Shown here in pieces: positions 108 through 21,390 of a DNA stretch of 53,433 nt. A program made the position numbers and the translations under genes. Where the stretch lies: the NCBI GenBank assembly GCA_964459265.1, contig CAYWKA010000003.1, positions 1-53,433 of the forward strand, in the 5' to 3' direction. Every line of letters starts with the position of its first letter. The first letter of the stretch is position 1. The stretch is from an uncultured Candidatus Saccharibacteria bacterium. Its GTDB lineage: Bacteria; Patescibacteriota; Minisyncoccia; Minisyncoccales; Paceibacteraceae. The notes below the pieces were generated by a model. The model saw only the letters and a list, made by a program, of their open reading frames with translations. It did not search any database and had not been told where the DNA came from.

Positions 108-653
108 ATGAAAAAATTATTTTTAATTATTTTTTTATTAAGCTTATCTCTTCCTTTAACCGCCTCGGCCGGCACTTACATTGCCGTGCATAATGGTACG
201 GCTGAAACAATTTGTTACGAAGGGTTAGTGCCATGCGGCAAAGAAGTTTCTATGGGCGGCAGTTGGGAAAATGGCCAATGCGTCGGAGGCACTGCCATAG
301 ATGCACCTTGTACTTTTTGTCATTTTTTTGTCATGTTGGATGGAATTTTTGATTTTATTTTATTTCAGCTAGTCCCGCCCTTAGCCGTTTTAATGCTGGC
401 CATTGGCGGAATAATGTATATTATGGCCTATTTCAGTGAAGCCGAAACTCTGGTCGGCGGCGCAAAAGGCGGACCGAAAATGTTAAGCCAGGCAAAAAAA
501 TTAATCACTTCCGTAATACTGGGCCTGATTATAATTTATGCTGGCTGGCTCCTGGTAGATTTATTCTTTGATGTAATCGGGGTAGCTGAATGGACCGGTC
601 TAAATCAGGGTTGGTTTTCCATCCAGTGCCAAATAACCATTCCTTCTTTTTAA
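108..653 (+). CDS. Secreted TrbC/VirB2-like T4SS pilin-family protein (CPR type)
   Basis: Signal peptide MKKLFLIIFLLSLSLPLTASA, then a Cys-bearing exposed segment (LVPCG...CTFCHFF). Two hydrophobic helices follow, joined by a short polar loop (...LAIGGIMYIMAYFSEAETLVGGAKGG...LGLIIIYAGWLLV). The same two-helix module heads ORFs 16174 and 19939. Confidence 0.6.
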   Translation: MKKLFLIIFLLSLSLPLTASAGTYIAVHNGTAETICYEGLVPCGKEVSMGGSWENGQCVGGTAIDAPCTFCHFFVMLDGIFDFILFQLVPPLAVLMLAIGGIMYIMAYFSEAETLVGGAKGGPKMLSQAKKLITSVILGLIIIYAGWLLVDLFFDVIGVAEWTGLNQGWFSIQCQITIPSF

Positions 654-1521: not shown

Positions 1522-1526
1522 GAAGA

Positions 1527-5589: not shown

Positions 5590-5594
5590 TAAAA

Positions 5595-7522: not shown

Positions 7523-8550
7523 TATATGTATCCTTTAATTGAAGAGGAGCCTACTCTTAAAGTTCTATAATTCATTCTACCCAGCCCGATATAATTCATC
7601 TCCGAGAAAACTACTTTATCTCCTTTTACTTCCTCTACATAACCCACGTGGCCATAATATCTATTTCCGGAAAGAGATATGACCGATCCCACTTGGGGAA
7701 TACAATAGCTTCCTTTACAAACTGCGTAGCCTGACCGAATGGCGTTATTTAACCAATCTTTGGCATGACCCCAAGCTGGAATTGGTCTTTTTTGGGCAAC
7801 CCACCAGGTGCATTGTCCCCAAGGGAAAGCGTGGGATTGACCATAAAAATTGTTGGTAGAGGACCCGACAGAGGCGGCGGGAGTTTGAACAATTGAGACT
7901 GAAGGTAATTTCCCGTCAGGAATAATCAAAACCTCATTAATCACAATATCTCCTGCGCCAGAAAGATCATTAAATTCAATAACTTTTTCTGCATCAGTTT
8001 TATATTTTTCAGCCAAACTACCCACCGTATCTCCTTCTTTAACTAAGTGCATCACTCCCGTAACCGGTAAAATAAGAAGTTTCTGACCGGGCTGAATTAA
8101 TAAACTTTTCATGTCGTTGGCCCAAAGAATAGTGTCCAAAGAGATATCAAAACGAGCCGCAATGGCCCATAAGCTATCTCCTTCTTCTACAATATATTCA
8201 GTAATTTCTTTTCTTTCGGCAATATCACCCTCTCCCATCCACATCCCTAAAACCTGAGAGGTAATGACTACCGGTGGAGATACTGCTTTCAAGCTAGAAT
8301 TTTCAACGAAAAGAAAGTCGGGTGAGTCCAAGGAGGAGTTTTTAACCGGTCCAATAAAAGGCTCTTTAGGAAAACTCTCTTCCAACAAAGAAAAAATCCC
8401 TTGAACATTGAGGGAAATTGAAGATAGGCCAGGACCGGTAGAGACTATACTAAGCAAAATAACTGCCGTAATTCCTAAATAAAGGAAGGGGTCTCTGGAA
8501 GATCCCTTTATTTTTTTAAAATATCTCTTAAATGTAAAATAAGGCGACAT
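7519..8550 (-). CDS. Membrane-anchored LysM-LysM-CHAP peptidoglycan hydrolase
   Basis: N-terminal TM helix and two LysM repeats (YIVEEGDSLWAIAARFDISLDTILWANDM; HLVKEGDTVGSLAEKYKTDAEKVIEFNDL). C-terminal CHAP motifs are FPWGQCTWWV ... GHVGYVEEV. Confidence 0.85.
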   Translation of the reverse strand: MSPYFTFKRYFKKIKGSSRDPFLYLGITAVILLSIVSTGPGLSSISLNVQGIFSLLEESFPKEPFIGPVKNSSLDSPDFLFVENSSLKAVSPPVVITSQVLGMWMGEGDIAERKEITEYIVEEGDSLWAIAARFDISLDTILWANDMKSLLIQPGQKLLILPVTGVMHLVKEGDTVGSLAEKYKTDAEKVIEFNDLSGAGDIVINEVLIIPDGKLPSVSIVQTPAASVGSSTNNFYGQSHAFPWGQCTWWVAQKRPIPAWGHAKDWLNNAIRSGYAVCKGSYCIPQVGSVISLSGNRYYGHVGYVEEVKGDKVVFSEMNYIGLGRMNYRTLRVGSSSIKGYIY

Positions 8551-9563: not shown

Positions 9564-9572
9564 TGGTAAAAT
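9564..9572 (+). promoter_or_regulatory. Extended -10 box TGGTAAAAT overlapping the first ATG of the VirB6-like gene
   Basis: TGGTAAAAT at 9564-9572 overlaps the ATG at 9571. A second in-frame ATG at 9580 lies 7 nt downstream of the box, where a leaderless start would fall. Confidence 0.4.
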
Positions 9573-12288
9573 GAAATTGATGGAAGGTAAAATTAAAAAA
9601 TTTTTTTCTAAGAAATCCGGCGGATTAGCAGCTTTTAATGCTGGCCCCGTAGCCAAGCGAAGTTTACGGCTCGGGGCTGTTTTATTTTGCGTTCTTTTAG
9701 GACTACTTTTGCCGTTTCATTTTATTCAAGCTCAAGGTGGAATTTTAGGAGCTATCATGAGTATCGGTGCTAACATCGTCACCATTTTTCTCCAGGTTAT
9801 CTTAGTTATTTCCAATATATTTATGGGGATAGCCGGTCTGATTCTAAACTGGGTTTTAAGTCCTTATTTTATGAGCTTACCCTATACTCATGGTGGAATT
9901 GTGGATGTCGGCTGGCCGATCGTTAGGGACTTTGCCAACTTATTTTTTGTTGTCGCTTTGGTTTTTATTGGTTTAGCTACCGCTCTCAGAATCAGCGAAT
10001 ATCAAGCTAAAAAAGCTCTCCCTCGATTAATTATTATTGCTCTTTTGATTAACTTTACTCCGGTTATCTGCGGACTAATTATGGATGCCACAAATATTTT
10101 GATGAACTTTTTCTTAGAAGAAGTATCTGGCTTGAAAACAATGGGAATTTTCATTATTCAGCAAGGAACAATACTTCATGATGTTTTTACGCATTTCCTT
10201 GATATTCGCTACGCTGCCGCCGCTTTAGGAAAAACCATAGTTATGATTGCTTTTGATTGGATAGGCGGCCTTATTTTTCTTATGTTTGCCCTTCTTTTTG
10301 TTTTGCGATACATAATGGTCTGGGTTTTGGTAATCGTTTCACCGATTGCCTTCCTTTCTAAAATTTTCCCAGGTGCCCAACAATATGTCTTCAGAAGCAT
10401 TTTAGGTTGGGACGAGTGGTGGCGACAGTTTATTGAATGGTCACTGCTTGGGATTACCGGAGGCTTCTTTCTTTATTTGGCTGAGCAACTAATAGTTTTA
10501 GCACCCGGTATGTTTCCTGCCGCTCCTCCTGATTTAGCTTGGGGCTGGCTTACTATCCCGGTTGTTGAGTTTATTAACAATCTTTTGCCTTACGGCGTAG
10601 TTTTAGCTTTCCTGCTGATCGGTTTTTTCACTGCCACTTCTACTTCAGCCATGGGAGCCAGTTTTGTTGTCAATTGGGCCAAGACTCAAGGTCCGGCTTT
10701 AGGCAAAGCAGCCCTCAAAGGCGGCTTGACTCCACTTAGAAAAGAAGTGCTGCCGCGATTAGAAAAAGGATTAAAAACAAAAGAAGCAGCTGGTTGGGTA
10801 TCTGGCAAATTAAGAAAGGTGCCTCTTGTCAGGCATGTGGGGCCAGTATCTGCTTTAAGAAGATACGGTGAGTGGCGAGAGGACATTGAAAAAGATATGG
10901 GTGCAATTACTGGTTCTTCATACACCATTGGGCAAGAAATAGGGGCAGGCTATTACCCTGGGAAGAAGGCAACAGCTGCATTATTGCAAATAACTAAGAG
11001 GGGGGATTCCCAAGATTATTTCAAGGGTATGAAAAAACGATATGGAATAGCTGAAGATGCCGATGATGAGATTCTTCTTGAAAATCCGAAATTCTTGAAA
11101 GAAACTGAGGATTTATTAAGAACAGCCTATCGAGCGGGATTAGGAAATGATATTACCAGAAGGGACCCAAGATTGGCAGCAGCCTTAGCTGGGAAAAAAG
11201 GAGTTGGGTTTAATTATGAAAAGGATAATTATGGCAAGGATATGACTGCAGCAACCGCCATAGCTAAAGCAACCAGAGAAGCCAGGGGCCAGCATATTAC
11301 TAACTGGGAAAAAGATGTGGTTGCCAATAAAGACGTTGTTAAAACTTTAATGAAGGACGGCGGATTAAGCGCTTTTAGACACATAGATGATAAAGTTAAA
11401 GAAGGCCGGCTGACTACTTTAGGAACAATGAAGAAAATTTGGGAAGACCATGTAGCAGATTATGCTAAATCAAAGAACAAAGCTAAATGGGATGATTTGA
11501 CTGAAGGTGAAAAGAAAGAAGCCGAAGAGAAGTTCATAAAAGAATATCCACGCTACTGGGACCCCAAAACTGGAGCAGCTTATAACCCAAGATTCCGCTC
11601 CGAAGGTTGGGTACGGAATCCTCGGGACTTATATAAAACTTTCCCGGAGCCATTAGTAGAAAAGGGCCTTGGTGTAGTACCGCCCGATTTCCGTGGGGAG
11701 GAAATACCCGAAGAGGAATTGGAAGCAATGAGACAAGCTGGCTGGGTGCCACCAAAAGTAGAATCAGCAGAAGAAAGAATGAGGGAAGAAGCAGAAAGAG
11801 AAGAAATAATCAAGAGCTGGCCCAAAGCAGAAAAAGGAATGCCTTCAAAGCTCCAAGGCTCAATAGAAGAAGGAGAAAAGTTAATTTCGGAAATTAAAGA
11901 ACAAGAAGCTACAATTAATAGTTTAGAGACAGCCATCAACGAATGGGGAGAGAACTTAGCTTCTTTAAGAGAAAGTTTAAGCAAAACTAACGAACAGATT
12001 AATTCTGGTCGATTATCTGGAGATGCCCTAACCAGGGCCAGAGAAAACCTGGCTATACTATACAAGAAGAGAAATGAGGCGGAAAGACAACGGGAAGAAA
12101 TAGAAGCTAAAGAAGCTGAAATTGAACCAGCCAGAGAAGCTGTTGAAAGCATAAAAATTCATTTATCTGAACTTTATAGAGAAGCTATTGAGCCCTTCTT
12201 AGAAGTAGAGGAAGAAAGAGAAAAGGCAGAAAAAAGAATAAAAGCAATGAAAGAAAAGGAGAAAAAAGTCAAAAAGAGTAAATTGTAA
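9571..12288 (+). CDS. TrbL/VirB6-like polytopic membrane protein with a ~500-aa charged coiled-coil C-terminal tail
   Basis: About 8-10 hydrophobic helices in the first ~400 aa (e.g. FVVALVFIGLATAL, LIIIALLINFTPVICGLIM, IMVWVLVIVSPIAFL). A Glu/Lys-rich tail with heptad-like stretches follows. It heads the T4SS-like gene string. The true start may be ATG 9580. Confidence 0.6.
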   Translation: MKLMEGKIKKFFSKKSGGLAAFNAGPVAKRSLRLGAVLFCVLLGLLLPFHFIQAQGGILGAIMSIGANIVTIFLQVILVISNIFMGIAGLILNWVLSPYFMSLPYTHGGIVDVGWPIVRDFANLFFVVALVFIGLATALRISEYQAKKALPRLIIIALLINFTPVICGLIMDATNILMNFFLEEVSGLKTMGIFIIQQGTILHDVFTHFLDIRYAAAALGKTIVMIAFDWIGGLIFLMFALLFVLRYIMVWVLVIVSPIAFLSKIFPGAQQYVFRSILGWDEWWRQFIEWSLLGITGGFFLYLAEQLIVLAPGMFPAAPPDLAWGWLTIPVVEFINNLLPYGVVLAFLLIGFFTATSTSAMGASFVVNWAKTQGPALGKAALKGGLTPLRKEVLPRLEKGLKTKEAAGWVSGKLRKVPLVRHVGPVSALRRYGEWREDIEKDMGAITGSSYTIGQEIGAGYYPGKKATAALLQITKRGDSQDYFKGMKKRYGIAEDADDEILLENPKFLKETEDLLRTAYRAGLGNDITRRDPRLAAALAGKKGVGFNYEKDNYGKDMTAATAIAKATREARGQHITNWEKDVVANKDVVKTLMKDGGLSAFRHIDDKVKEGRLTTLGTMKKIWEDHVADYAKSKNKAKWDDLTEGEKKEAEEKFIKEYPRYWDPKTGAAYNPRFRSEGWVRNPRDLYKTFPEPLVEKGLGVVPPDFRGEEIPEEELEAMRQAGWVPPKVESAEERMREEAEREEIIKSWPKAEKGMPSKLQGSIEEGEKLISEIKEQEATINSLETAINEWGENLASLRESLSKTNEQINSGRLSGDALTRARENLAILYKKRNEAERQREEIEAKEAEIEPAREAVESIKIHLSELYREAIEPFLEVEEEREKAEKRIKAMKEKEKKVKKSKL

Positions 12289-12303: not shown

Positions 12304-12759
12304 GTGCTAAAAGGCTACAACAGAGATCAATTATGGAAATTATATAATACTCTTCCTTCGGAACTAAAAGAGGCGCTTTTCGCAATAGAAACGGCTGACT
12401 ATATTTATGATGTTTGTGAAAAAAACGAAGTTAAAGACAAACAAATTACCGAAGTGGCCCGTTCTACGGGTAAGGTCTTGCTGGGGGTTTTACCACCAGA
12501 CGAATTCCAGGAAGATTTAGAAAAAAAGGTGGGGCTTGAAAAAGAAACAGCTAAAAAAGTAGCTCAAGAAATTAATCGTTTTATCTTTTATCCCTTGAAA
12601 GCAGTTCTGGAAAAACTTTACAAAACAGAAATTACTCCGCCCTCTAGGCCGATTACTGGAGTCGAAGAGACAACTGAAGAAGCTACCACCCCATCCAAAA
12701 AAAAAGAAGAACCTAAATCCCCGCCTAAAAAAGATGTTTATCGGGAACCTGTTGAATAA
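12304..12759 (+). CDS. Hypothetical protein (GTG start) in the T4SS-like string
   Basis: 151-aa ORF, tightly packed between neighbours, with a Pro/Lys/Glu-rich tail. I recognise no family. Confidence 0.55.
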   Translation: MLKGYNRDQLWKLYNTLPSELKEALFAIETADYIYDVCEKNEVKDKQITEVARSTGKVLLGVLPPDEFQEDLEKKVGLEKETAKKVAQEINRFIFYPLKAVLEKLYKTEITPPSRPITGVEETTEEATTPSKKKEEPKSPPKKDVYREPVE

Positions 12760-12761: not shown

Positions 12762-13172
12762 ATGAGATTTACTGTCCCACAATTTATTGAGCACGAGGCA
12801 AAAATAATTGGCCCTCTCACTTTCAAGCAATTTATGTTTATCGGGATAGCTGGCGCTATCTGTTTTATTCTTTACTTTACCGTCCCTTTTTCTATTTTTT
12901 TAATTGGCTGCGTGGTCTTGGGAGGAGGAGGAATCTCCCTTGCCTTTTTTAAAATTGGCGGTAGAAGTTTGCCGGTTCTTTTCGGAAATTTCTTAAAATT
13001 TTTTATCGGCCCGAAAATGTATATTTGGAAAAAAGGAGAAGCCCCAATAAAATTTTTTAAAAAAGAGGTGGTGAAGAAGGAAGAAGAAAAAGAAGATGAA
13101 CTGCCATTAAAAATTGCGGAAAAAAGTCGGTTAAAAAAACTAAGTACTCAAATTGAAACAAAAACTAAGTAA
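12762..13172 (+). CDS. PrgI-family (VirB3-like) small membrane protein
   Basis: N-terminus MRFTVPQFIEHEAKIIGPLTFKQFMFIGIAGAICFILYF plus a second helix. This is the characteristic PrgI-family start, and the gene lies directly upstream of VirB4, as in Gram-positive T4SS. Confidence 0.65.
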   Translation: MRFTVPQFIEHEAKIIGPLTFKQFMFIGIAGAICFILYFTVPFSIFLIGCVVLGGGGISLAFFKIGGRSLPVLFGNFLKFFIGPKMYIWKKGEAPIKFFKKEVVKKEEEKEDELPLKIAEKSRLKKLSTQIETKTK

Positions 13173-13175: not shown

Positions 13176-13817
13176 ATGGCTCAGGCCTCTACTCAACAAT
13201 TTTTAGAAATTGACCAGATAAGAGAAGGAGTAATTGTTCTGAAAAATAAAGCCCTCAGAGGAGTACTAATGGTTTCTTCTCTTAATTTTGCTTTAAAGTC
13301 GGAAGATGAGCAAAAGGCTATTATTTATCAGTTCCAGAATTTTTTGAATTCTTTAGATTTTTCTTTAGAAATTGCGGTCCAGTCCCGAAAATTAAATATC
13401 ACGGGTTACCTTGATAAATTAAAAGAGCTGGAAACCCAACAAGAAAATGAACTTCTTAAGGTGCAAACTACTGAATACCAAAAATTTGTTAAAGAGCTGA
13501 TTGCCGGCGGGGCGATTATGTCTAAAAACTTTTTTGTAGTTGTCCCTTTCACTTTAGTAGAAATCCCAGGTATGAAACAGGCTAAAGGTTTTTTTGGGGG
13601 AAGGCCTGGTACTACTTTTAATGAGGACCGGTTTCATCGGGCCAAATCTCAGCTCTGGCAAAGAATGGAGTTTGTGGCTCTGGGATTAAGAAGGTGTGGT
13701 CTCCAATGTGTTCCTTTAAATACTTCTGAATTAATTGAGCTTTTCTGGAGCTTGTATCATCCTGAAGAAGCTGAAGTCGGTTATTATCCAGAAATCCCTT
13801 CAGAATTAATTCATTAA
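13176..13817 (+). CDS. VirB4/PrgJ N-terminal-domain-like protein (first piece of a split VirB4)
   Basis: QQFLEIDQIREGVIVLKNKALRGVLMVSSLNFALKSEDEQKAIIYQFQNFLNSL resembles the N-terminal segment of Gram-positive VirB4-type ATPases. The ORF ends 1 nt before the ATPase ORF. Confidence 0.55.
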   Translation: MAQASTQQFLEIDQIREGVIVLKNKALRGVLMVSSLNFALKSEDEQKAIIYQFQNFLNSLDFSLEIAVQSRKLNITGYLDKLKELETQQENELLKVQTTEYQKFVKELIAGGAIMSKNFFVVVPFTLVEIPGMKQAKGFFGGRPGTTFNEDRFHRAKSQLWQRMEFVALGLRRCGLQCVPLNTSELIELFWSLYHPEEAEVGYYPEIPSELIH

Positions 13818-13818: not shown

Positions 13819-15609
13819 ATGAAAATAAAATTACCTTTTTTAAAAAAAGAAAGAGAAATACCGGAAAAAATTTTTGCCATCCCGGCCATTGAAGCAAAAG
13901 ACATTATTGCTCCCTCTTCTATTTCTTTAGCGGCTGACCACTTAAAATTAGGCAAGAGATTGGCTAGATCTTTCTTTATTTTTTCTTACCCTAGATACCT
14001 AAGCACGGCTTGGTTTTCTCCGGTTATTAACTTAGACACTCCTATGGATATTGGTCTACACGTCCATCCAGTAGAAACCGGAACGGTTTTAAAACAATTA
14101 AGGAAGAAAGTAACTGAAGTTCAAGCTGAAATCATAGAAAGGGAGGAAAAAGGTTTCATCCGTGATCCCGCCCTGGAAATCGCTTACCAAGACTTAGAAG
14201 CCTTAAGAGACAGATTGCAGACTGCCCAAGAAAGGATGTTCAAGTTTGGTCTTTATTTAACTGTCTACGCTAATAAAACCCGGGAATTAGAAGAAATTGA
14301 AAACACTTTAAGGTCAATTTTAGAATCAAGATTAATTTATATAAAACCTGCTCTTTATCAACAGAAGGAAGGATTCAATTGTACTTGTCCTTATGGCTTG
14401 GACCAGCTTCAAGTCCACACCTCAATGAATACCGACCCTTTGTCTTCTATTTTTCCTTTCGTTTCTTTTGATTTAAGTTCTAATGAGGGAATTTTATACG
14501 GTATAAATCAACACAACAATTCTTTAATTTTATTTGACAGATTCTCTTTGGAGAATGCCAATAGCGTTGTTTTCGCCAAAGCCGGTAGCGGTAAATCTTA
14601 TGCGGTAAAATTAGAAATTTTACGTTCTTTAATGCTGGGGGTAGACACTATTGTCATTGATCCTGAAAACGAATATAAATTTTTGGCCGACGCCGTTGGC
14701 GGCTCTTTCTTTAATATTTCTCTGGCCAGTCCCAACCATATCAATCCTTTTGATTTACCAACTCCTAGACCAGACGAAAAACCGGCTGATGTTTTAAGAA
14801 CAAACGTCATTAATCTGGTAGGGCTACTGAGAATTATGTTGGGCGGCCTTACCCCGGAAGAAGATGCCATTATCGATAGAGCTTTAACCGAAACTTACGG
14901 AGCCCGAGACATTACTCCCGAAACTGACCCTCAAACATGGGAAGAGAAAATTCCTTTAATGTCTGATTTTGAAGCGGTTTTAGAAGGGCTGGAAGGAGCA
15001 GAATCTTTAGTCAGAAGGGTAAGAAAGTTTACCAAAGGAACTTTCGCAGAATTTTTCAACCAACCCACCAATATCTCCATGGACAAACCTTTTGTATCTT
15101 TCGGCATCAGAGACATGGAAGACGAACTACGGCCTATAGCTATGTTTATTGTTATGAGATACATCTGGAACAAAGTTAGGTCGGAATTAAAAAAAAGAAT
15201 TTTAGTGGTGGATGAGGCCTGGTGGATAATGCAGACCTCAGACGGCGCTTCTTTTCTATACGGAATAGCTAAACGGGCCAGGAAATACTGGTTGGGGGTA
15301 ACTACCATCACTCAAGATGTGATTGATTTTATGAAGTCAGATTACGGCAAACCAATTATTACCAATTCCTCTCTACAGCTTTTGATGAAACAGAGTCCGG
15401 CTACCATGGATGTGGTCCAAAAAACTTTTAATTTGACTGAAGAAGAAAAGTATCTTTTATTAGAAGCTGAAGTCGGTGAAGGAATGTTCTTCGCTGGCCA
15501 GAAACATGTGGCTATAAAGGTGGTGGCTTCTTACACTGAAGACCAAATTATCACTACCGCCCCGGAAGAAGTTTTAAGAATTAAAAAAGCTAAAGGATTA
15601 CCAGTTTAA
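13819..15609 (+). CDS. VirB4-family T4SS ATPase (C-terminal two-thirds)
   Basis: Walker A FAKAGSGKSYAVK and Walker B RILVVDEAWWIM. The preceding APSSISLAADHLKLGKRLARSFFIFSYPRYL block is typical of VirB4/TraE/PrgJ. Confidence 0.8.
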   Translation: MKIKLPFLKKEREIPEKIFAIPAIEAKDIIAPSSISLAADHLKLGKRLARSFFIFSYPRYLSTAWFSPVINLDTPMDIGLHVHPVETGTVLKQLRKKVTEVQAEIIEREEKGFIRDPALEIAYQDLEALRDRLQTAQERMFKFGLYLTVYANKTRELEEIENTLRSILESRLIYIKPALYQQKEGFNCTCPYGLDQLQVHTSMNTDPLSSIFPFVSFDLSSNEGILYGINQHNNSLILFDRFSLENANSVVFAKAGSGKSYAVKLEILRSLMLGVDTIVIDPENEYKFLADAVGGSFFNISLASPNHINPFDLPTPRPDEKPADVLRTNVINLVGLLRIMLGGLTPEEDAIIDRALTETYGARDITPETDPQTWEEKIPLMSDFEAVLEGLEGAESLVRRVRKFTKGTFAEFFNQPTNISMDKPFVSFGIRDMEDELRPIAMFIVMRYIWNKVRSELKKRILVVDEAWWIMQTSDGASFLYGIAKRARKYWLGVTTITQDVIDFMKSDYGKPIITNSSLQLLMKQSPATMDVVQKTFNLTEEEKYLLLEAEVGEGMFFAGQKHVAIKVVASYTEDQIITTAPEEVLRIKKAKGLPV

Positions 15610-15618: not shown

Positions 15619-16158
15619 ATGGCTTTACCAGTAATTGCGGCTGGCGCTGCTAAGGGATTAGCAGCAGCTGGCAGGGGAGTAAAAGCAGCTAAAGGAGTTC
15701 AGAAGGCAGGGGAAATAGGAAAAAGAGTGGGCAGGGCAGTTCAAAAAAGACCTCTCCCGGGAGCACCGACACCAGGAACTGAAGAAAAGGCGCCAGATGA
15801 AGCAACTAATAAATTTTCTGCCCTGACTCGTCCTGGAGTGATTATGCTGATTATCGCGATTTTTATTGATATTTTTGGCGTAATTTGTCTTCTCTTGGAT
15901 ATTTTTTTTGGAGTTGGGGAAATTCCTTCCTGGATTTCTGACGGCGCCGGTATTGTTTTTATTGGCGGATGGATATGGTTTAGGTCAGGCAGAGTGGAAG
16001 TACCGGAAAGAGCAAAACAAAGAACAGAAAAAGGATTAAAGAAGCTTTTCCGGGGAAAATATAAAAAATTTTTGACCCCTATTTTGGGAGAAGTCGCTCC
16101 TTTTGTTGGCGCTTTTCCTTTCTGGAGTTTAGCTGCTTATTACGAGCTAACAAGTTAA
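15619..16158 (+). CDS. Hypothetical membrane protein of the T4SS-like string
   Basis: Ala/Gly/Lys-rich N-terminus followed by 3-4 hydrophobic helices. No family recognised. Confidence 0.55.
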   Translation: MALPVIAAGAAKGLAAAGRGVKAAKGVQKAGEIGKRVGRAVQKRPLPGAPTPGTEEKAPDEATNKFSALTRPGVIMLIIAIFIDIFGVICLLLDIFFGVGEIPSWISDGAGIVFIGGWIWFRSGRVEVPERAKQRTEKGLKKLFRGKYKKFLTPILGEVAPFVGAFPFWSLAAYYELTS

Positions 16159-16173: not shown

Positions 16174-18642
16174 ATGCTGAAAAACAGCCAAGTCAAATTA
16201 TTAGTTTTATTTTTGCTCCTTTTTCTTTTTTTAGGAGCATCTTTTATTTTAGCCCAAAAACCTTTAGAGGTAACTTATCCAGAACTTCCCGGAGTTAAAA
16301 CCCCCACTACCACCAAAGAGGCCCTGCCCGATTACATAAGGTATGTTTTTCATTTGGGTTTATTTTTGGCCGGCCTTTTGGCTTTCGGCTCTTTTGTCTA
16401 TGGCGGCTTCCGCTATTTAACTTCAGGTGGCTCTCCTGCCGTCCAAAAGGATGCTGTTTCTCAAATTACGTCCGGCTTTTTGGGGTTAGCTATTTTAATT
16501 TTTACCTTCGTTCTTCTTAATATGATAAATCCTCAATTAACCGCCTTTAATGTTTCTTTGCCACACGTACCCTTGAGCAATTTAGTGGTTAGTTTGCCTA
16601 AAATTGGCGCTACCAATTACTTGGAAATTCCCTTGGGAGGTTTAATTGAAAATCTCTGGGGGAGGCGAAGCCCCACCTATCCTTCGGGATTTAAGCCGAT
16701 TGACTGTTACGATTTTGACACAGACGGGATTAATCCTAGTGGTGATGCTGTTGGTCTTCTCACCAACCATGACCGTTTGGACTGCATCAAGGAACTTTCT
16801 GCTGCTATTAAGGTAAAAGCGGAAAAATTAAAAGAGCCGGTAGAAGAATTAAGCCGGTACTATACCTGCGACAACTGCTGTGAAGATTGCTGCAATAATG
16901 TTTGTTCAAACTGGGTAACTTGCGCTGATATTTGTGATGAAGGAGGAGTCTGGCCTTGGTGGCAATGGGAAAATTGCGAAGGGACTTGTTGCCAAGGCAC
17001 CCAAAATGAGGGCTGCTGGGGGAGTTGCGGGCCTTATGATTGTTGCGAAGGATTAGGAATGGACGGCTGGAAGAATTTTTGTCCGGGGCTTTGTTGTGAA
17101 TACTTTCAGGAATGTAAGTGCGAAGAATGCCTGGGCAGTATTTGTCGTTATCCTGAAGACAAGAAGACAATCTGTAATTATACTGATTTAATTATTCAAG
17201 ATTTAATTGAGCAAATTAAAGAGGCCCTGATTGAGTTTCAGGTCAAAATGGGGTTTTTCCCTTTGACTGAAAAGATGAGAAAGTCTGATAATCTTGACCT
17301 GTTATTGTCAGTTGGCAACACTAAAACTTTAATCAAAAATCTTTTGCTCTACCAAGAGCCGGGTTACAGCCAAATAGATAAAGACAAACTGAAAAATATC
17401 TTAAAAATTAAAGAAGTAATGACTTATCTTATTAACGAGTGGCCATACCGCGCACTGCTTCTTGACAACCAAAACTTAGTCAAGACAATGGCTAGAATTT
17501 TAGGTCTTTTGGAAAACGAAGTGGCCATTAACGAAATTGCCTGGATGGGAACAATAGCCGATGAAAACCAAGAATGGTTAGAATTGTATAACAATACTAA
17601 CGGCGGAATTTCGCTTGATGGCTGGCAGCTAAAAGCGGCTGACGGCAGTCCCGAGATTCCTCTCTCCGGCCAAATTCCCGCCCAGGGTTTTTATCTTTTA
17701 GAGAACGATGAATCGGCTACTAATTTACCAGCTGGCTCAATTTTTAGCGGAAATTTAAATAATGACGGTGAAATCTTGGAACTTTATGACCAGTTTGGCA
17801 ATCTGGTGGAAAGAGTTAATTGCCAGACCGGCTGGTTTGCCGGCGAAAAAAACCCGGCAACCTCAATGGAAAGAATAAATCCTCAGGGAAGAGGTTCAGA
17901 TTACGAAAACTGGCTGAATAATTTATCGAGCGATGTTAAAGAAGAGCAGAAAAAAGATTTTATTAACGGAGCAGACCAGGATGGAAATCCAATTTACGGT
18001 ACTCCCAAAGAACCCAACAGTAACGGGCTGAGAATCGCTTCTTATCCCTCCCTTGAACTTTTAGCGTATGAAATCAGCGCAAAAATAATTAGCGAGGAAG
18101 AAACAAGGGAAAAACTAATTTTGTTTTTAAGAAAAGATGAGAATCTGGAAAAAATAATGAAGGGAAACGAAGAGTTTTTAGGTGATGTTTTGATGGGCGA
18201 CGACGACAGACTAAAAAGATTGCTAAAAGAAAGAGAAGTTTTAAAAATTTTATTTGAGGATGAAGGCAATCTTAATACAATTTTAGCTGATAGCCATATT
18301 GAAGAGCTCTTCCGCCAACTTTTAAATATGGAAGAGCCAGAAAAGGATGCGGCCTGGCAGGATTTAATTGCTAATAAATTAACCGAAGTAGTAACCAATT
18401 CGAAAATCATCAGCGATTTTGAAAAAGATTTATCTTGGGTGGTGGAAGCCGGAGACATAATGCAAGAATGCGCCGAAGACCCTATTAGCATTGATCAAGC
18501 CAGAGTCCCTGAGTTTATTTCCGGCATAGTAATAGAAAAGGTCCCCGAATGGGAAGAGATCGAAACCGGCCTTAAACTTCCGGGCGAAACTGAGACCAGC
18601 CATGATCCAGCTATTTTCTATTGTCATAAACTTTTATGGTAA
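16174..18642 (+). CDS. Pilin-module fusion protein: VirB2-like N-terminal module + cysteine-dense block + lamin-tail domain (LTD)
   Basis: Signal peptide, then the pilin module (LEVTYPELPGVKTPTT...GGFRYLTSGGSPAVQKDAVSQITSGFLG...NMINPQL). About 25 Cys fall in ~150 aa (YYTCDNCCEDCCNNVCSNW...). The LTD signature is INEIAWMGTIADENQEWLELYNNTNGGISLDGWQLKAADG...GEILELYD. Confidence 0.7.
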   Translation: MLKNSQVKLLVLFLLLFLFLGASFILAQKPLEVTYPELPGVKTPTTTKEALPDYIRYVFHLGLFLAGLLAFGSFVYGGFRYLTSGGSPAVQKDAVSQITSGFLGLAILIFTFVLLNMINPQLTAFNVSLPHVPLSNLVVSLPKIGATNYLEIPLGGLIENLWGRRSPTYPSGFKPIDCYDFDTDGINPSGDAVGLLTNHDRLDCIKELSAAIKVKAEKLKEPVEELSRYYTCDNCCEDCCNNVCSNWVTCADICDEGGVWPWWQWENCEGTCCQGTQNEGCWGSCGPYDCCEGLGMDGWKNFCPGLCCEYFQECKCEECLGSICRYPEDKKTICNYTDLIIQDLIEQIKEALIEFQVKMGFFPLTEKMRKSDNLDLLLSVGNTKTLIKNLLLYQEPGYSQIDKDKLKNILKIKEVMTYLINEWPYRALLLDNQNLVKTMARILGLLENEVAINEIAWMGTIADENQEWLELYNNTNGGISLDGWQLKAADGSPEIPLSGQIPAQGFYLLENDESATNLPAGSIFSGNLNNDGEILELYDQFGNLVERVNCQTGWFAGEKNPATSMERINPQGRGSDYENWLNNLSSDVKEEQKKDFINGADQDGNPIYGTPKEPNSNGLRIASYPSLELLAYEISAKIISEEETREKLILFLRKDENLEKIMKGNEEFLGDVLMGDDDRLKRLLKEREVLKILFEDEGNLNTILADSHIEELFRQLLNMEEPEKDAAWQDLIANKLTEVVTNSKIISDFEKDLSWVVEAGDIMQECAEDPISIDQARVPEFISGIVIEKVPEWEEIETGLKLPGETETSHDPAIFYCHKLLW

Positions 18643-19934
18643 AGTTTAAAAAACAAATCGCCACAATTCTTATTCTGGCTTTTTCTCTTTCTTTAGTTCC
18701 TGATTTTTTATACAATGGAGAAAGAGAAGAGGTTGCCGCCGCAATGAGCTGCCCTTATCCGGATTGTGAGGTAGTAGAAAAAGAAGGACAAACTTATTGT
18801 ACTAATTGCCCAATTGATTGTCAGTTCGGAACAGAAATAGTTACTAATAAATCCTGTCTTCCTTTAGAAGGAACCGGAGAATGGCTTTGCGGAAAAGAAA
18901 TCCCGATTGGAGAAGTAATTGACAGAAGCGCGATTTTGGCTTCCAAAATGCTGGCCGAATTTAGCGGCATGATTGAAAATGGTCAAATAATGGTAGAAAA
19001 AACCGAAGAGATACTTCACGGTAATTCAGAAAAGGGAATCCCGGCCATTGCTGATTGGGAATGCGGAAATATATGCGCTACCAGATGTTATAAATATTTT
19101 CAGATTCCTGATCTTCTTGAACCTCCTGGTCCTGATTGGGAGCTAATTGAAGGTCCGCCGGGTCTATGCGCCAGCGGCCCTCAACCGCCTAGTATTATTG
19201 GCGCTAAAACTGACTGCCAAGAAGACGTTAGCCGATGCGAAACTTGCGCTCAATTCTTAGCTAATGAAAGTTATTGCTGGGAAACCACCTTTGCTCCTGA
19301 CCTTCTTTTCCCAGCAGATACCGTAACCTGTAAATACTGTCCTCTAAGTTGCCAGACAAAATGTTATGTTTTTCGTTGCGGGGCATATAGAGGACGACCG
19401 GGATGCTATAACTATTTTTTCCGACCAGTCATTGATGGCTATGACTACATTGAAAACGCTCAAGAAGGACTGAAAAACGATATTGATGAAAAGTATTTTG
19501 ACGAAGGAGAATTAAAGGATTTGCCAGAAAATTTTAAGTTCAAAAAGTCGTATATCTTAGAGCAGCTTGATTTTTCTCGCTGCGAACTGGCTCAATGCTG
19601 GATACCAGCTGATGAATATCAAAAGGTAATGGAGGGCGAATTGGCCGGGAAACATCTTTTAAGCTGCAGAACCGTCTCGGATGCGGACCTTTTAGAAGAT
19701 GACCAGCTTCTCTGTTTATCTTTTCAAATTGTCAACGAATGGGAGAAAATCAAAGAACTTTGGGGAGAAATGGAAGAAGCGCCTTGGTGGCGGAAACCTT
19801 TAATTTTTTTACAGATAGTTTGGGAAACAATCTTATCCGCAGGAAAATTTCTGTGGGGATTGATAAAAGAATGGTTTAACGTAGGCAAAGAAGAAGGATG
19901 CTACCCAAACAATTATTATTGTTGTTATTTCTAA
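18636..19934 (+). CDS. Secreted cysteine-rich protein (about 28 Cys), translationally coupled to the preceding gene
   Basis: The ATG overlaps the upstream stop (ATGGTAA). N-terminal hydrophobic signal ATILILAFSLSLV, Cys scattered throughout, C-terminal amphipathic stretch, and the ending CYPNNYYCCYF. Confidence 0.65.
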   Translation: MVKFKKQIATILILAFSLSLVPDFLYNGEREEVAAAMSCPYPDCEVVEKEGQTYCTNCPIDCQFGTEIVTNKSCLPLEGTGEWLCGKEIPIGEVIDRSAILASKMLAEFSGMIENGQIMVEKTEEILHGNSEKGIPAIADWECGNICATRCYKYFQIPDLLEPPGPDWELIEGPPGLCASGPQPPSIIGAKTDCQEDVSRCETCAQFLANESYCWETTFAPDLLFPADTVTCKYCPLSCQTKCYVFRCGAYRGRPGCYNYFFRPVIDGYDYIENAQEGLKNDIDEKYFDEGELKDLPENFKFKKSYILEQLDFSRCELAQCWIPADEYQKVMEGELAGKHLLSCRTVSDADLLEDDQLLCLSFQIVNEWEKIKELWGEMEEAPWWRKPLIFLQIVWETILSAGKFLWGLIKEWFNVGKEEGCYPNNYYCCYF

Positions 19935-19938: not shown

Positions 19939-21390
19939 ATGAGAAAAGCGTTGTTAATATTTCTTCTTTCTTCAGTTTTTATAGCTGGTTTTTGCCTGGC
20001 AGCGGAGAGGGGATTAGAGATTGAATATCCGTCTCTGCCCGGGGTAGAAACACCAACGACCGTTAAAACTGCTCTGCCTGATTTTATCAGATACTTTTTT
20101 ACTTTTTCAATAATAATCGCTGGCGTTTTAGCTTTTGGGGCAATAGTCCTCGGCGGAATACGTTATTTAACTTCAGCAGGGGCGGCGGCGGCGATGAGTG
20201 ACGCTAAAGACCAAATTACTTCCGGCTTCCTGGGGGTAATTATTCTCCTTTCTTCTTTTTTAATTTTAAACACTATCAACCCTCAACTTATCCTTCCTGA
20301 AAAACCGCCGCTTACCCCGACTGAAAGCGGAGTCAGAATTTACTCAAACACTGACAACTGTGGAGAAACTGCGATTGACGAAGATAAAGAAATCAATTCA
20401 ATGAAAGTTTTTCAAAATCTCCCAGTATTTAAAAAAGAGAGGGAAGGGGAAATCGTTCTTGACTGGGGAAGCGATGGCGAATACCAAATTGAATCAGTTG
20501 AATTTCTTTGTGGCCCGGAAGAACTAACCGTAGAAATTTTTCCTGAGGAAGATTTTAGTGGAACTCCTTACTTACTTGATTATGAAGAATCAGAGTATAT
20601 AGAAGGAATTACTCACTGTGAAGATTTCAGCAGCAGTACTGACCACCGCTCAATTAAATTGGATTGGCATATTCCTGGAGTTTATCTTTATGCCGAAGAT
20701 GACTGTTCTGACGAACCTAAAATTTATCAAGCCAGCTCAGATACTTTGCCCGATTTTGATAACAGAACCCAAGCGATAAAATTAATCGGCGGGGACTATG
20801 ACGCTTCCTTAGGAAAATATCAGATTAGATACGGTGTAGCTTTGCACGAACATGAAAATCATCAAGGAAGAGCCGCCATATTTGATTTTGACACCGTTGT
20901 TAACGCTGTTGGCTATGGCCAATGTTATCCGATTAGTAATATCACAAGCACCGGCCAGGTTAATATGACGTTTTATGTTTCTTCAATTACGGTTTATCAA
21001 GAACCAAGATATAAAGAAGACGGCACAGAACAAATAATTGGTGCCGGGGTAAGATTTTACGAGAATAAAAACTATGCCATGCATGATGAAGGGGCAGATT
21101 GTGAATCAAAAAAGCCACCACAAATTTTTGGTGATGGCCGATCAGTCAGCAATGTAGATCCTTTAACTTACTGTGCTGACGGTTGCAGTTCGGGATGCAA
21201 TGATAAGTTTACCTCAATGGAAATGGATGGTCACTATATAGTCTTACTGTTTGAGCATGAAGATTATCAAGGCAGGTGTCAGGTTGAAACCGTCAGTAAC
21301 CCCGACTTTAGACCACACCCTATTGGTCAATGTGGCTGGCTGGGGAGGACTGATTGCTTAACTTCTTTTATCGTCAGGGCTAGAAAATAA
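19939..21390 (+). CDS. Pilin-module fusion protein with a C-terminal domain of Greek-key (beta/gamma-crystallin-like) repeats
   Basis: The N-terminal ~120 aa are paralogous to ORF 16174 (LEIEYPSLPGVETPTT...GGIRYLTSAGAAAAMSDAKDQITSGFLG...NTINPQL). C-terminal repeats fit (Y/F)xxxx(Y/F)xG...S, e.g. LLFEHEDYQGRCQVE...CLTSFIV. Confidence 0.6.
   Translation: MRKALLIFLLSSVFIAGFCLAAERGLEIEYPSLPGVETPTTVKTALPDFIRYFFTFSIIIAGVLAFGAIVLGGIRYLTSAGAAAAMSDAKDQITSGFLGVIILLSSFLILNTINPQLILPEKPPLTPTESGVRIYSNTDNCGETAIDEDKEINSMKVFQNLPVFKKEREGEIVLDWGSDGEYQIESVEFLCGPEELTVEIFPEEDFSGTPYLLDYEESEYIEGITHCEDFSSSTDHRSIKLDWHIPGVYLYAEDDCSDEPKIYQASSDTLPDFDNRTQAIKLIGGDYDASLGKYQIRYGVALHEHENHQGRAAIFDFDTVVNAVGYGQCYPISNITSTGQVNMTFYVSSITVYQEPRYKEDGTEQIIGAGVRFYENKNYAMHDEGADCESKKPPQIFGDGRSVSNVDPLTYCADGCSSGCNDKFTSMEMDGHYIVLLFEHEDYQGRCQVETVSNPDFRPHPIGQCGWLGRTDCLTSFIVRARK

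What the first reader, a model, noticed from the sequence alone, without database searches (positions are those of the whole stretch)
16174..18642. VirB2-like pilin module fused to a ~700-aa cargo that includes a lamin-tail domain
Classical T4SS pilins are ~100 aa. Here the two-helix pilin module (residues ~1-125) continues into a cysteine-dense block, a helical region and a clear LTD (INEIAWMG...EWLELYN...LDGWQL...GEILELYD, about 17524-17890). The same module occurs three times in the window (108-653 alone; 16174 and 19939 as fusions). This suggests one filament scaffold displaying alternative tip or decoration domains. Bacterial LTDs are typically attached to extracellular nucleases and competence-type proteins, and a second LTD is fused to ComEA at 29526-30449. 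That links this apparatus to extracellular DNA by inference only.
Basis: partly seen in the sequence, partly recalled or inferred. Interest (0 to 1): 0.7.

Follow-up and report, generated by a model that had tools for sequence, protein, structure and literature searches.

The report
Pilin-like anchor carrying large surface cargo
An ultra-small (Parcubacteria-type) bacterium encodes, inside its chromosomal type IV secretion gene cluster, an 822-residue protein with a short pilin-like membrane hairpin joined to a large acidic extracellular part that includes a lamin-tail domain; the fusion is real and conserved, and such cargo-bearing "pilins" turn out to be the rule in this lineage, which points to a surface display or host-contact role, not a plain pilus subunit.

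Summary
ORF 16174-18642 is an intact 822-aa gene. The identical protein is on at least 24 independently assembled contigs, and 41 full-length orthologues (41-78% identity) all carry both the PF18895 "T4SS_pilin" hairpin and an LTD. It lies in a conserved cluster next to dnaA: VirB6-like, PrgI/VirB3, split VirB4, this gene, a translationally coupled Cys-rich 432-aa protein, then a second pilin-module protein whose cargo is a beta/gamma-crystallin fold.

Three corrections:
- **Long is normal.** Of the 147 nearest 50%-identity clusters carrying this module, 140 exceed 250 aa (median 470). Their cargo includes crystallin, SLT, M23 and C39 domains. Sixteen proteins carry 2-6 modules in tandem.
- **VirB2 homology is not shown.** No sequence homology to genuine VirB2 is detectable (hhalign probability 0.4%). 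"VirB2-like" rests on topology, gene context and the Pfam name.
- **The DNA link is weak.** The LTD is an insert that a syntenic sister clade lacks, its net charge is -19, and it is only 26% identical to the ComEA LTD.

Best reading: a modular pilin-like subunit of the Patescibacteria T4SS-like machine that displays extracellular cargo. Whether a filament exists is unproven. This is a new variant of a known kind.

The parts
16174..16254 (+). Sec-type signal peptide of the 822-aa protein (aa 1-27; predicted cleavage between the invariant A27 and Q28)
   Evidence: Hydrophobic N-terminus. A27 and Q28 are invariant in 41 orthologues. The same ..FA|Q..LE..YP junction is seen in 40 diverse modules.
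16255..16527 (+). Pilin-like module (aa 28-118): conserved mature N-terminal segment QKPLEVTYP...LPDYIRY, followed by two about 30-residue hydrophobic helices joined by the loop R80-YLTSGGSPAVQ-K92
   Evidence: PF18895 E 9e-4 in the full protein and 3.9e-5 for the module alone. All 41 orthologues and 28 of 28 diverse modules hit PF18895. AF2 models helices 53-83 and 88-118. This is the most conserved part of the protein: 85% mean column identity against about 66% for the cargo. 9007 representative clusters match it at E<=1e-3.
16528..16611 (+). Flexible linker rich in Pro/Ser/Val/Leu (aa 119-146)
   Evidence: pLDDT below 50 for aa 125-144. Length and sequence vary among orthologues.
16612..16863 (+). 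Junction domain (aa 147-230) with the invariant motif E151-I-P-x-G-x3-E-N-L161 and a long helix at 201-227 (DRLDCIKELSAAIKVKAEKLKEPVEEL)
   Evidence: Invariant columns. pLDDT 81-93. A similar EIPIGE motif occurs in the next gene and in P0055 and P0071.
16864..17178 (+). Cysteine-dense block (aa 231-335; 23 Cys, several CC doublets)
   Evidence: Cys positions and their conservation. Model confidence is low (pLDDT 47-71). No Pfam, PDB or BFVD match.
17179..17508 (+). Helical-repeat array 1 (aa 336-445)
   Evidence: AF2 models short helices with pLDDT 87-96. BLAST shows internal similarity to array 2. No structural match.
17509..18009 (+). Lamin-tail domain (Ig-like beta sandwich, aa 446-612), inserted between the two helical arrays
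   Evidence: PF00932 at 40.1 bits, above the 34.3 cut-off. Foldseek matches lamin A/C and B1 Ig-folds with prob 1.0. It is absent from the syntenic orthologues P0044-47 while both flanks align. Net charge -19.
18010..18468 (+). Helical-repeat array 2 (aa 613-765)
   Evidence: AF2 models helices with pLDDT 85-95. It is retained in the LTD-less orthologues.
18469..18642 (+). Conserved C-terminal cap (aa 766-822, ...DPAIFYCHKLLW) plus the stop codon. The stop overlaps the start of the next gene (ATGGTAA at 18636-18642).
   Evidence: Invariant C766, D811, F815, Y816, C817, W822. The overlap is read directly from the sequence.
18636..19934 (+). Translationally coupled partner gene: a 432-aa protein with an N-terminal hydrophobic segment (signal peptide or anchor) and 28 Cys, ending ...NNYYCCYF
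   Evidence: ORF and Cys count. There are 51 homologues, all stand-alone at 357-460 aa with no Pfam domain, always downstream of the 822-aa orthologue.
19939..21390 (+). Second pilin-module protein (483 aa): the same module (51% identity) with a two-domain beta/gamma-crystallin-fold cargo
   Evidence: Alignment. PF18895 E 5e-5. AF2 model pLDDT 74. Foldseek matches gammaD-crystallin at E 6e-7, target TM 0.72.
108..653 (+). Distant, short (181 aa) PF18895-type protein located between two tRNA genes
   Evidence: PF18895 E 1.3e-4. 28% identity with insertions. Module profile E 1.5e-4. tRNAs at 26-98 and 661-734.
13819..15609 (+). VirB4-type ATPase (596 aa) of the Gram-positive CD1110 type
   Evidence: NF045971 at 368.9 bits, above the 325 cut-off. 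P-loop_TraG, AAA_10 and DUF87 hits.
13176..13817 (+). Separate N-terminal domain of VirB4 (213 aa; TraC-like / TrsD-like)
   Evidence: PF26593 TraC-like in the precomputed annotation. The NF045975, NF045971 and TrsD models match on their N-terminal parts.
12762..13172 (+). PrgI / VirB3-like small membrane protein (136 aa)
   Evidence: PF12666 PrgI at 29.1 bits, above the 27 cut-off.
9571..12288 (+). Polytopic membrane protein (905 aa) with a long coiled-coil tail: candidate VirB6 analogue, inferred only
   Evidence: Multiple hydrophobic segments in aa 29-362. No Pfam or NCBIfam family match. The position is syntenic in relatives.
15619..16158 (+). Small membrane protein (179 aa) between VirB4 and the 822-aa gene; role unknown
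   Evidence: Hydrophobic segment at aa 65-106. No family match. Present in L001-L003 and L005 (156 aa there), absent in L004.

Best explanation
The 822-aa protein is a modular, pilin-like subunit of the chromosomal T4SS-like apparatus of a Parcubacteria/Paceibacteria-type bacterium (Nealsonbacteria-like clade).

Shown:
- It has a Sec signal peptide and a two-helix PF18895 hairpin whose loop carries conserved basic residues (R80, K92).
- A flexible linker follows, then about 680 aa of very acidic cargo: a junction domain, a Cys-rich block, and two helical-repeat arrays with an Ig-like LTD inserted between them.
- It is encoded directly after VirB4. Its stop overlaps the start of a Cys-rich 432-aa protein, and a second protein with the same module and a beta/gamma-crystallin cargo follows.

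Inferred:
- After signal-peptide cleavage the hairpin sits in the membrane with both ends outside, so the cargo is extracellular.
- As for VirB2 pilins, the VirB4/VirB3/VirB6-type machine engages the hairpin. Hairpins associate side by side, as a ring, cap or filament layer.
- The protein is a low-copy, tip-, cap- or sheath-type component that presents its cargo to the outside. It probably works together with the 432-aa partner and the crystallin-bearing paralogue, for contact with a host cell or surface.
- The LTD is an accessory binding module, not the core of the function.
For: - The fusion is conserved. 41 orthologues at 41-78% identity all have both domains. The identical protein is on at least 24 contigs.
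- Topology and fold.
- The module is the most conserved region, 85% against about 66% mean column identity. This implies constrained contacts.
- Synteny with VirB4, the TraC-like domain, PrgI and the polytopic protein next to dnaA holds in four lineages. It matches the published Patescibacteria T4SS layout (PMC12102498).
- The ATGGTAA overlap with the next gene indicates coupled translation.
- The same module carries other extracellular cargo. The neighbouring gene has a crystallin fold. Among 104 representatives there are Crystall in 7, SLT in 3, SLT_3 in 2, Peptidase_M23 in 3, Peptidase_C39_2 in 4 and Peptidase_C70 in 4.
- Natural polypeptides with 2-6 tandem modules joined by S/G/P linkers show that modules can sit side by side.
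- In solved conjugative pili the helix-loop-helix loop is basic and faces the lumen, while the N and C termini lie together at the other end (PMC12037004). C-terminal cargo would therefore point outward.
- Predicted pilins in the T4SS cluster of the Saccharibacterium Southlakia epibionticum are essential (PMC10633639; PMC12857230).
- Type IV pili give a precedent for grafting bulky modules onto pilins that probably sit at the tip (PMC8179133).
Against: - No sequence-level homology to genuine VirB2 was found: hhalign probability 0.4%, and no solved pilin in profile searches.
- This protein's own PF18895 score is below Pfam's cut-off.
- No filament has been seen in any of these organisms. The cluster contains no short module gene that could form a shaft.
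- The cargo has no recognisable binding or enzymatic domain apart from the LTD, so "host contact" is an inference.
Confidence: 0.5

Rival explanations
1. Membrane anchor only. The two-helix module is just a bitopic hairpin anchor and possibly a docking element for the VirB4/VirB6 complex. The three proteins (822, 432 and 483 aa) form a fixed cell-surface complex around the secretion channel. This would be functionally analogous to surface adhesins or extended VirB6 domains of Gram-positive T4SSs. No pilus is ever polymerised.
For: - No detectable homology to VirB2. The best non-significant matches are generic TM hairpins such as HtrII.
- The cluster has no cargo-free module gene.
- Gram-positive-type T4SSs normally lack pili (PMC12102498; PMC10633639).
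- Enzymatic cargo such as SLT, M23 and C39 on the same module fits a membrane-tethered enzyme at least as well as a filament subunit.
Against: - The hairpin and its short extracellular N-terminal segment are conserved far more strongly than a simple anchor needs: 85% column identity, with invariant E32, Y35, P36.
- Tandem arrays of up to six modules in one chain are hard to explain for a mere anchor.
- Structure-based annotation by others calls the Saccharibacterial counterparts pilins (PMC10633639).
Confidence: 0.25
2. Pro-protein. The polypeptide is cleaved in or near the linker (aa 119-146). Either a small mature pilin is released, by analogy with the C-terminal trimming of TrbC and TrhA, or the acidic cargo is released as a secreted or T4SS-delivered factor.
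For: - Classical conjugative pilins are C-terminally processed: 27 residues are removed from TrbC and 5 from TrhA (PMC12037004).
- The linker is predicted to be disordered and exposed.
- This would solve the missing-shaft-subunit problem.
Against: - No conserved cleavage motif stands out in the linker, which varies in length and sequence.
- Known trimming removes a few to 27 residues, not about 700.
- No protease gene lies in the cluster.
- Tandem poly-module proteins with short linkers suggest the chains stay intact.
Confidence: 0.1
3. DNA receptor. The LTD-bearing cargo captures extracellular DNA for uptake through the T4SS-like machine or the competence system, linking it functionally to the ComEA-LTD protein at 29526-30449.
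For: - The nearest LTDs in the database sit in proteins with ComEA-type HHH domains, PLD-type nuclease domains, OB-folds and a T2SSK pseudopilin domain.
- The LTD occurs in the extracellular nuclease ExeM, where deleting it lowers in-vitro activity (PMC6085458).
- The Patescibacteria T4SS has been proposed as a candidate route for nucleotide acquisition (PMC11665869).
Against: - The LTD has net charge -19 (family -10 to -26) and the whole cargo -60, pI 4.4. This is unfavourable for direct DNA binding.
- The LTD is missing from the syntenic orthologues P0044-47, which keep the rest of the protein. An unsupported NJ tree suggests secondary loss.
- The two LTDs in the window are only 26% identical.
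- In ExeM the LTD is dispensable for extracellular DNA degradation in vivo, and its role is unknown.
- No relaxase, coupling protein or nuclease domain lies in the cluster.
Confidence: 0.08
4. Artefact. The long ORF is a chimeric assembly or a read-through of two genes.
For: None found.
Against: - The identical 822-aa product is on at least 24 contigs from independent assemblies.
- 43 full-length homologues of 774-915 aa have invariant residues spread from M1 to W822.
- Gene order is syntenic in four lineages.
Confidence: 0.01

Closest known systems
VirB2-like pilin arrays of the Patescibacteria T4SS (PF18895; Wang et al. 2023 Cell, PMC10633639; Quinonero-Coronel et al. 2025 Microb Genom, PMC12102498)
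   Same: - The same Pfam family.
- The same chromosomal cluster type: Gram-positive-type VirB4, PrgI/VirB3 and a polytopic VirB6-like protein, with no relaxase or coupling protein, next to dnaA.
- Several divergent pilin-module genes per cluster.
   Different: [quoted passage not shown] In the text I searched they do not mention C-terminal cargo, LTD, crystallin domains or tandem poly-modules.
- Here the module carries about 700 aa of cargo, and the cluster has no cargo-free module gene.
Classical conjugative pilins VirB2 / TrbC / TraA / TrhA (PF04956 and relatives)
   Same: - Signal peptide, then a helix-loop-helix with a basic loop.
- Encoded next to VirB3/VirB4-type genes.
- The termini are expected on the outer face.
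   Different: - No detectable sequence homology.
- The mature proteins are about 70-80 aa with no extra domain, whereas this one is about 795 aa.
- The classical pilins belong to diderm systems. Their polymerisation with phospholipid is demonstrated; here it is unknown.
Modular type IV pilins (S. sanguinis PilB/PilC, CofB, GspK; Raynaud et al. 2021, PMC8179133)
   Same: The design principle: a small polymerising N-terminal pilin module, a short linker, and a bulky functional module of very varied type. The modular subunit probably sits at the tip.
   Different: - The filament superfamily is unrelated.
- Type IV pilins have a class III signal peptide and a single N-terminal helix and are assembled by PilB/PilC-type machines.
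- This protein has a Sec signal peptide and a two-helix hairpin and sits in a VirB4 cluster.
Bacterial LTD proteins (extracellular nuclease ExeM, PMC6085458; ComEA-LTD as at 29526-30449)
   Same: An Ig-like lamin-tail domain in an exported or surface protein. The closest LTD sequences come from Patescibacteria and other environmental bacteria.
   Different: - This protein has no nuclease, HHH or OB domain.
- Its LTD is inserted inside a helical-repeat array and is dispensable in a sister clade.
T4SS tip and adhesin components (VirB5 at pilus tips; PrgB-type adhesins of Gram-positive T4SSs)
   Same: The proposed role: a surface-exposed, machine-associated component for target contact. No VirB5 or PrgB homologue is reported in Patescibacteria, so that niche is open.
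   Different: There is no sequence or fold similarity. The attachment here would be through a covalently fused pilin-like hairpin.

Membership tests
Pfam PF18895 T4SS_pilin | HMM match at or above the curated gathering score (26.6 bits) | tested here: inconclusive
   This protein scores 19.7 bits (E 9e-4) in full and 24.1 bits for the module alone, both below the cut-off. All 41 orthologues match at E<=0.01 (best 2.6e-8). 17 of the long homologues carry PF18895 in the precomputed annotation, and 28 of 28 diverse modules match (best 6e-10). It is a member at family level and sub-threshold individually.
VirB2/TrbC conjugative pilins (PF04956) | Detectable sequence homology to genuine VirB2/TrbC | tested here: not met
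   hhalign of 28 modules (A3) against 15 database VirB2 proteins with PF04956 (A4) gives probability 0.4%, E 0.17. PF04956 is hit by 1 of 28 modules at E 0.05. A profile search of PDB sequences finds no pilin. Caveat: the VirB2 alignment is narrow (58-85% identity to its first sequence, an Agrobacterium VirB2).
VirB2/TrbC conjugative pilins (PF04956) | Signal peptide followed by two hydrophobic helices joined by a short basic loop | tested here: met
   Hydropathy. AF2 models helices 53-83 and 88-118. R80 is invariant and K92 nearly invariant.
VirB2/TrbC conjugative pilins (PF04956) | Small mature size (about 70-120 aa) without extra domains | tested here: not met
   The mature protein is about 795 aa with at least five further structural regions.
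VirB2/TrbC conjugative pilins (PF04956) | Gene linked to virB3/virB4/virB6-type genes | tested here: met
   VirB4 (NF045971 above its cut-off), PrgI (PF12666) and the TraC-like domain lie immediately upstream. VirB6 is only inferred.
VirB2/TrbC conjugative pilins (PF04956) | Polymerises into an extracellular filament with phospholipid | not testable with these tools
   This needs cryo-EM or cryo-ET, or at least multimer modelling. Only single chains could be modelled here.
Lamin tail domain (PF00932) | HMM match above the gathering score and an Ig-like beta-sandwich fold | tested here: met
   40.1 bits, above the 34.3 cut-off. All 41 orthologues match. Foldseek matches lamin A/C and B1 Ig-folds with prob 1.0 and target TM 0.44-0.68.
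Patescibacteria chromosomal T4SS (MPF_FATA-related; PMC12102498) | Gram-positive-type VirB4, PrgI/VirB3, a pilin-module gene near virB4, a location near dnaA, and no relaxase or coupling protein | tested here: met
   VirB4 of the CD1110 family. PrgI. Pilin modules directly downstream. dnaA at 23352. No relaxase or T4CP domain in any window ORF that was scanned; not every ORF was scanned. Organism: the closest species representatives are Parcubacteria, Nealsonbacteria and Paceibacter.
Modular type IV pilins (T4P/T4F) | Class III signal peptide (G|F/M-x3-E) and a single long N-terminal helix | tested here: not met
   The N-terminus MLKNSQVKLLVLFLLLFLFLGASFILA|QKPLE is a Sec-type signal peptide with no prepilin motif, and two helices follow. 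The resemblance is in design only.

The most novel reading that the evidence does not exclude
Patescibacteria use a VirB4-powered, pilin-like two-helix module as a general display platform. Rings or filaments are built from, or capped by, subunits that each carry a large extracellular cargo: LTD plus helical and Cys-rich arrays, beta/gamma-crystallins, peptidoglycan hydrolases or proteases. Some are even made as covalent poly-pilins of 2-6 modules. This would be the T4SS counterpart of modular type IV pilins. It would explain how the essential but functionally unassigned T4SS of these epibionts contacts and remodels the host surface.
Probability: 0.3. Interest if true: 0.8.

Novelty: new variant of a known kind. 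Interest (0 to 1): 0.6.

Why it matters
- **An open question becomes testable.** The T4SS is essential in the one Saccharibacterium tested by Tn-seq, yet its role in Saccharibacteria is described as "completely unknown" (PMC11665869). Reviews single out its VirB2-like pilins as the most surprising feature of a monoderm T4SS (PMC12857230).
- **Cargo gives clues to function.** In a large Paceibacteria-centred subfamily these "pilins" are mostly carriers of big extracellular domains. That gives concrete, testable handles: which ligands the cargo binds, whether subunits polymerise, and whether hydrolase-bearing versions breach the host wall.
- **The pilin label needs caution.** It rests on topology and context, not on demonstrable homology to VirB2.

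Tried and rejected
- **Profile of 28 modules against all PDB sequences.** No pilin was found. The best hits were HtrII TM hairpins at E 0.3. The full-family profile gave the same result.
- **hhalign against genuine VirB2.** Nothing was found. The VirB2 bait recalled from memory was first verified as 100% identical to an annotated virB2. One attempt with the full-length bait timed out.
- **Retrieving R388 by accession.** It is not in the collection.
- **Foldseek of the full model.** Against PDB and BFVD only the LTD matched. Nothing matched the hairpin, the Cys block or the helical arrays.
- **Idea that the 432-aa neighbour is a paralogue of the cargo.** Rejected. hhalign of A6 against A2 aligns only the signal peptides.
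- **Idea that the 822-aa and 432-aa proteins are fused in other lineages (P0055, P0071).** There is only weak, local support. The EIPIGE-plus-helix motif gives hhalign probability 50% and 22%. The P0071 locus lacks a separate gene of the 432-aa type. This is unresolved.
- **Recent duplication between the two LTDs in the window.** Rejected at 26% identity.
- **NCBIfam.** It gave no name for the 822-, 432-, 483-, 181-, 179-, 151- or 905-aa proteins.
- **Promoter and terminator scan of the cluster.** Counts were about as expected by chance or only modestly above it, so uninformative.
- **Read-through artefact as the source of tandem-module proteins.** Rejected. The junctions have no Met or signal peptide and are S/G/P linkers.


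Full report

Yes. The + strand carries an uninterrupted ATG-initiated ORF at 16174-18642 encoding 822 aa.

Pfam finds a lamin-tail domain (PF00932) at aa 448-549, E 5e-10, 40.1 bits, above the curated cut-off of 34.3. It also finds a sub-threshold T4SS_pilin match (PF18895) at aa 58-116, E 9e-4, 19.7 bits against a cut-off of 26.6.

Hydropathy and an AlphaFold2 model built on 41 orthologues (mean pLDDT 77, pTM 0.69) give this layout:

| Region (aa) | Feature | Model confidence |
|---|---|---|
| 1-27 | Signal peptide | low |
| 53-83, 88-118 | Two helices joined by a four-residue turn | pLDDT about 70-76 |
| 125-144 | Disordered linker | pLDDT below 50 |
| 147-230 | Well-modelled junction domain | pLDDT 81-93 |
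| 232-334 | Cysteine block with 23 Cys | pLDDT about 47-71 |
| 339-442 | Helical-repeat array 1 | pLDDT 87-96 |
| 450-610 | Beta sandwich (LTD) | mostly 74-92 |
| 627-764 | Helical-repeat array 2 | pLDDT 85-95 |

Foldseek against the PDB matches only the beta sandwich, to the Ig-fold of lamins A/C and B1 (prob 1.0).

The module recurs in the window:
- In 19939-21390 it is 51% identical and scores E 1.5e-44 against a profile of the module.
- In 108-653 it is distant: 28% identity, profile E 1.5e-4.

**2. Is the fusion genuine?**

Yes.
- The identical 822-aa product was read on 24 contigs from separate assemblies.
- A search of 5.8 billion proteins returned 43 full-length homologues (774-915 aa, 41-78% identity, about 100% coverage).
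- In an alignment of 41 of them, invariant residues run from M1 to W822, and every member hits both PF18895 (best 2.6e-8) and PF00932.

A chimeric assembly or a missed gene boundary is therefore excluded.

**3. Context**

The gene lies in a tight, co-directional cluster:

| Coordinates | Product |
|---|---|
| 9571-12288 | 905-aa polytopic protein; VirB6 analogue by inference only |
| 12304-12759 | 151-aa protein |
| 12762-13172 | PrgI / VirB3-like |
| 13176-13817 | 213-aa TraC/TrsD-like N-terminal domain of VirB4 |
| 13819-15609 | 596-aa VirB4 of the Gram-positive CD1110 family (NF045971, 368.9 bits against a cut-off of 325) |
| 15619-16158 | 179-aa membrane protein |
| 16174-18642 | the 822-aa protein |
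| 18636-19934 | 432-aa protein with 28 Cys |
| 19939-21390 | 483-aa second pilin-module protein |

- The stop of the 822-aa gene overlaps the start of the 432-aa gene (ATGGTAA). This is the classic arrangement for coupled translation.
- Downstream on the other strand lie khpB/jag, yidC, yidD and rnpA, followed by dnaA and dnaN.
- This order is kept in relatives at 46% identity and beyond.
- No relaxase or coupling protein occurs among the window ORFs that were scanned.
- Full-length orthologues among GTDB species representatives are confined to Parcubacteria CG1_02_39_15, a Nealsonbacteria MAG, Candidatus Paceibacter normanii and one bin labelled Saccharibacteria.

This is the chromosomal, MPF_FATA-related T4SS of Patescibacteria described by Quinonero-Coronel et al. 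2025. That description includes its position near dnaA, its lack of a relaxase and its "VirB2-like" PF18895 genes (PMC12102498).

**4. How unusual is a long "pilin"?**

It is unusual compared with classical VirB2, but not within its own subfamily. An exhaustive HMMER search with the module (aa 28-130) against 1.84 billion representatives found 9007 clusters at E<=1e-3 and 1449 at E<=1e-10.

- Among the 147 best new representatives the median length is 470 aa. Only 7 are 250 aa or shorter, and 140 exceed 250 aa.
- The module is N-terminal in 194 of the 199 proteins in which it was detected.
- A Pfam scan of 104 of the representatives finds PF18895 in 101. The recognisable C-terminal domains are beta/gamma-crystallin (7), Peptidase_C39_2 (4), Peptidase_C70 (4), SLT (3), SLT_3 (2) and Peptidase_M23 (3). 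Most cargo has no Pfam match.
- The window's 483-aa paralogue was modelled (pLDDT 74). Its cargo matches two-domain gamma-crystallins (E 6e-7, target TM about 0.7).
- Sixteen representatives hold 2-6 modules in tandem in one chain, joined by Ser/Gly/Pro linkers with no Met or signal peptide at the junctions. One of them is four modules followed by an SLT lytic transglycosylase.

So "one scaffold, many cargoes" is well supported. The LTD-bearing architecture is one narrow branch of it.

**5. Is the module a VirB2-type pilin?**

Topology and context say yes:
- Signal peptide, then two hydrophobic helices.
- A conserved basic loop (R80 invariant, K92 nearly so).
- A position next to VirB3 and VirB4.

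Sequence does not confirm it:
- A profile of 28 diverse modules finds no solved pilin in the PDB (best hit a generic HtrII hairpin at E 0.3).
- Only 1 of 28 modules touches PF04956, at E 0.05.
- hhalign against 15 database VirB2 proteins gives probability 0.4%. The bait sequence was checked as 100% identical to an annotated virB2.
- That VirB2 alignment is narrow, so very remote homology is not excluded.

I therefore file the protein under PF18895 at family level. I treat "VirB2-like" as a working analogy, not a demonstrated membership.

The module is the most conserved part of the protein, at 85% mean column identity against about 66% for the cargo. This argues for constrained protein-protein contacts and against a passive anchor.

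**6. The LTD and the DNA inference**

- Orthologues P0044-47 (570-593 aa) occupy the same syntenic slot. They align over aa 1-458 and 629-822 but lack the LTD. The LTD is therefore a discrete insert between two related helical arrays.
- A quick neighbour-joining tree, without support values, places an LTD-bearing sequence (P0043) basal to both groups. This suggests secondary loss.
- The LTD is very acidic: net -19, family range -10 to -26. The whole cargo has net charge -60 and pI 4.4.
- The two LTDs in the window are 26% identical.
- The closest LTDs elsewhere do sit in proteins with ComEA-type HHH, PLD-nuclease, OB-fold and T2SSK domains, but also with beta-helix, PKD and dockerin domains.
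- In the one studied case, ExeM, the LTD's role is unknown and it is dispensable for DNA degradation in vivo (PMC6085458).

The DNA link is thus possible but weakly supported. A general extracellular binding or spacer role fits better.

**7. Mechanism proposed**

Shown: export signal, hairpin, linker, extracellular-type cargo, operon membership, coupling to the 432-aa gene, and family-wide modularity.

Inferred:
- After signal-peptide cleavage the hairpin inserts with both ends outside.
- The VirB4/VirB3/VirB6-type machine engages it, as it does VirB2.
- Hairpins associate laterally, and the cargo projects outward. In solved conjugative pili the basic loop lines the lumen, while the termini lie together at the opposite end (PMC12037004).
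- The cargo is bulky and no cargo-free module gene is in the cluster. I therefore favour a low-copy tip, cap or sheath role together with the 432-aa and 483-aa proteins (confidence 0.5).
- The rivals are a purely membrane-anchored surface complex (0.25), a cleaved pro-protein (0.1) and a DNA receptor (0.08).

The design parallels modular type IV pilins (PMC8179133) but belongs to an unrelated machinery.

**8. Novelty**

The Patescibacteria T4SS and its PF18895 genes are published. In the searchable literature I found no mention of large C-terminal cargo, LTD or crystallin fusions, hydrolase fusions or tandem poly-modules. I rate it a new variant of a known kind, with interest 0.6.

Noticed in passing
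Related proteins P0081-P0090, P0102, P0108, P0111, P0148, P0195, P0216 (representatives): Natural "poly-pilins": 2-6 pilin-like modules in tandem in a single polypeptide, joined by Ser/Gly/Pro linkers with no start codons or signal peptides at the junctions. P0081 is four modules plus an SLT lytic transglycosylase. P0083 alternates modules and cargo.
   Followed up: partly
window 13176-13817 and 13819-15609: VirB4 is split into a 213-aa TraC/TrsD-like N-terminal domain gene and a 596-aa ATPase gene, separated by one base. The split is conserved in relatives.
   Followed up: partly
window 16624-16656 (aa 151-161 of the 822-aa protein) and 18897-18926 (aa 88-97 of the 432-aa protein): A shared short motif, E-I-P-[IL]-G-x-[LV]-[IV]-[ED], is followed by a long helix. 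It is invariant in both families and occurs twice in the distant pilin-plus-Cys-rich proteins P0055 and P0071. It may be a docking element, or a trace of an ancestral fusion of the two genes.
   Followed up: partly
window 18604-18639 and 19896-19931: Both proteins end in conserved aromatic-Cys C-termini...DPAIFYCHKLLW and ...GCYPNNYYCCYF, with invariant residues in each family. Their meaning is unknown.
   Followed up: no
window 29526-30449 (-) and 30621-31916 (-): ComEA (HHH_3) fused to an LTD and a C-terminal hydrophobic tail lies near a T2SSE-family (PilB/PilT-type) ATPase on the same strand, about 170 bases away.
   Followed up: no
window 7519-8550 (-): A LysM plus CHAP peptidoglycan hydrolase lies two genes upstream of the T4SS cluster. 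Relatives have LysM plus Peptidase_M23 at the same syntenic position. It is a candidate VirB1 analogue.
   Followed up: no
window 36831-41331: Three tandem paralogues of an ABC_sub_bind substrate-binding protein are followed by a dCache-HAMP membrane protein, and a PAS histidine kinase lies just upstream at 34813-36624.
   Followed up: no
window 108-653, between tRNA-Arg (26-98) and tRNA-Lys (661-734): The only short PF18895-type gene in the window belongs to a different subfamily (Cys-containing N-terminal segment, insertions in the hairpin) and sits 9 kb from the T4SS cluster. Whether it supplies a shaft subunit is unknown.
   Followed up: partly
locus L006 (contig of P0071), 549-5654: In a more distant lineage the slot after VirB4 holds a 910-aa pilin plus Cys-rich protein, followed by two crystallin-type pilin-module proteins, with no separate gene of the 432-aa type.
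   Followed up: partly
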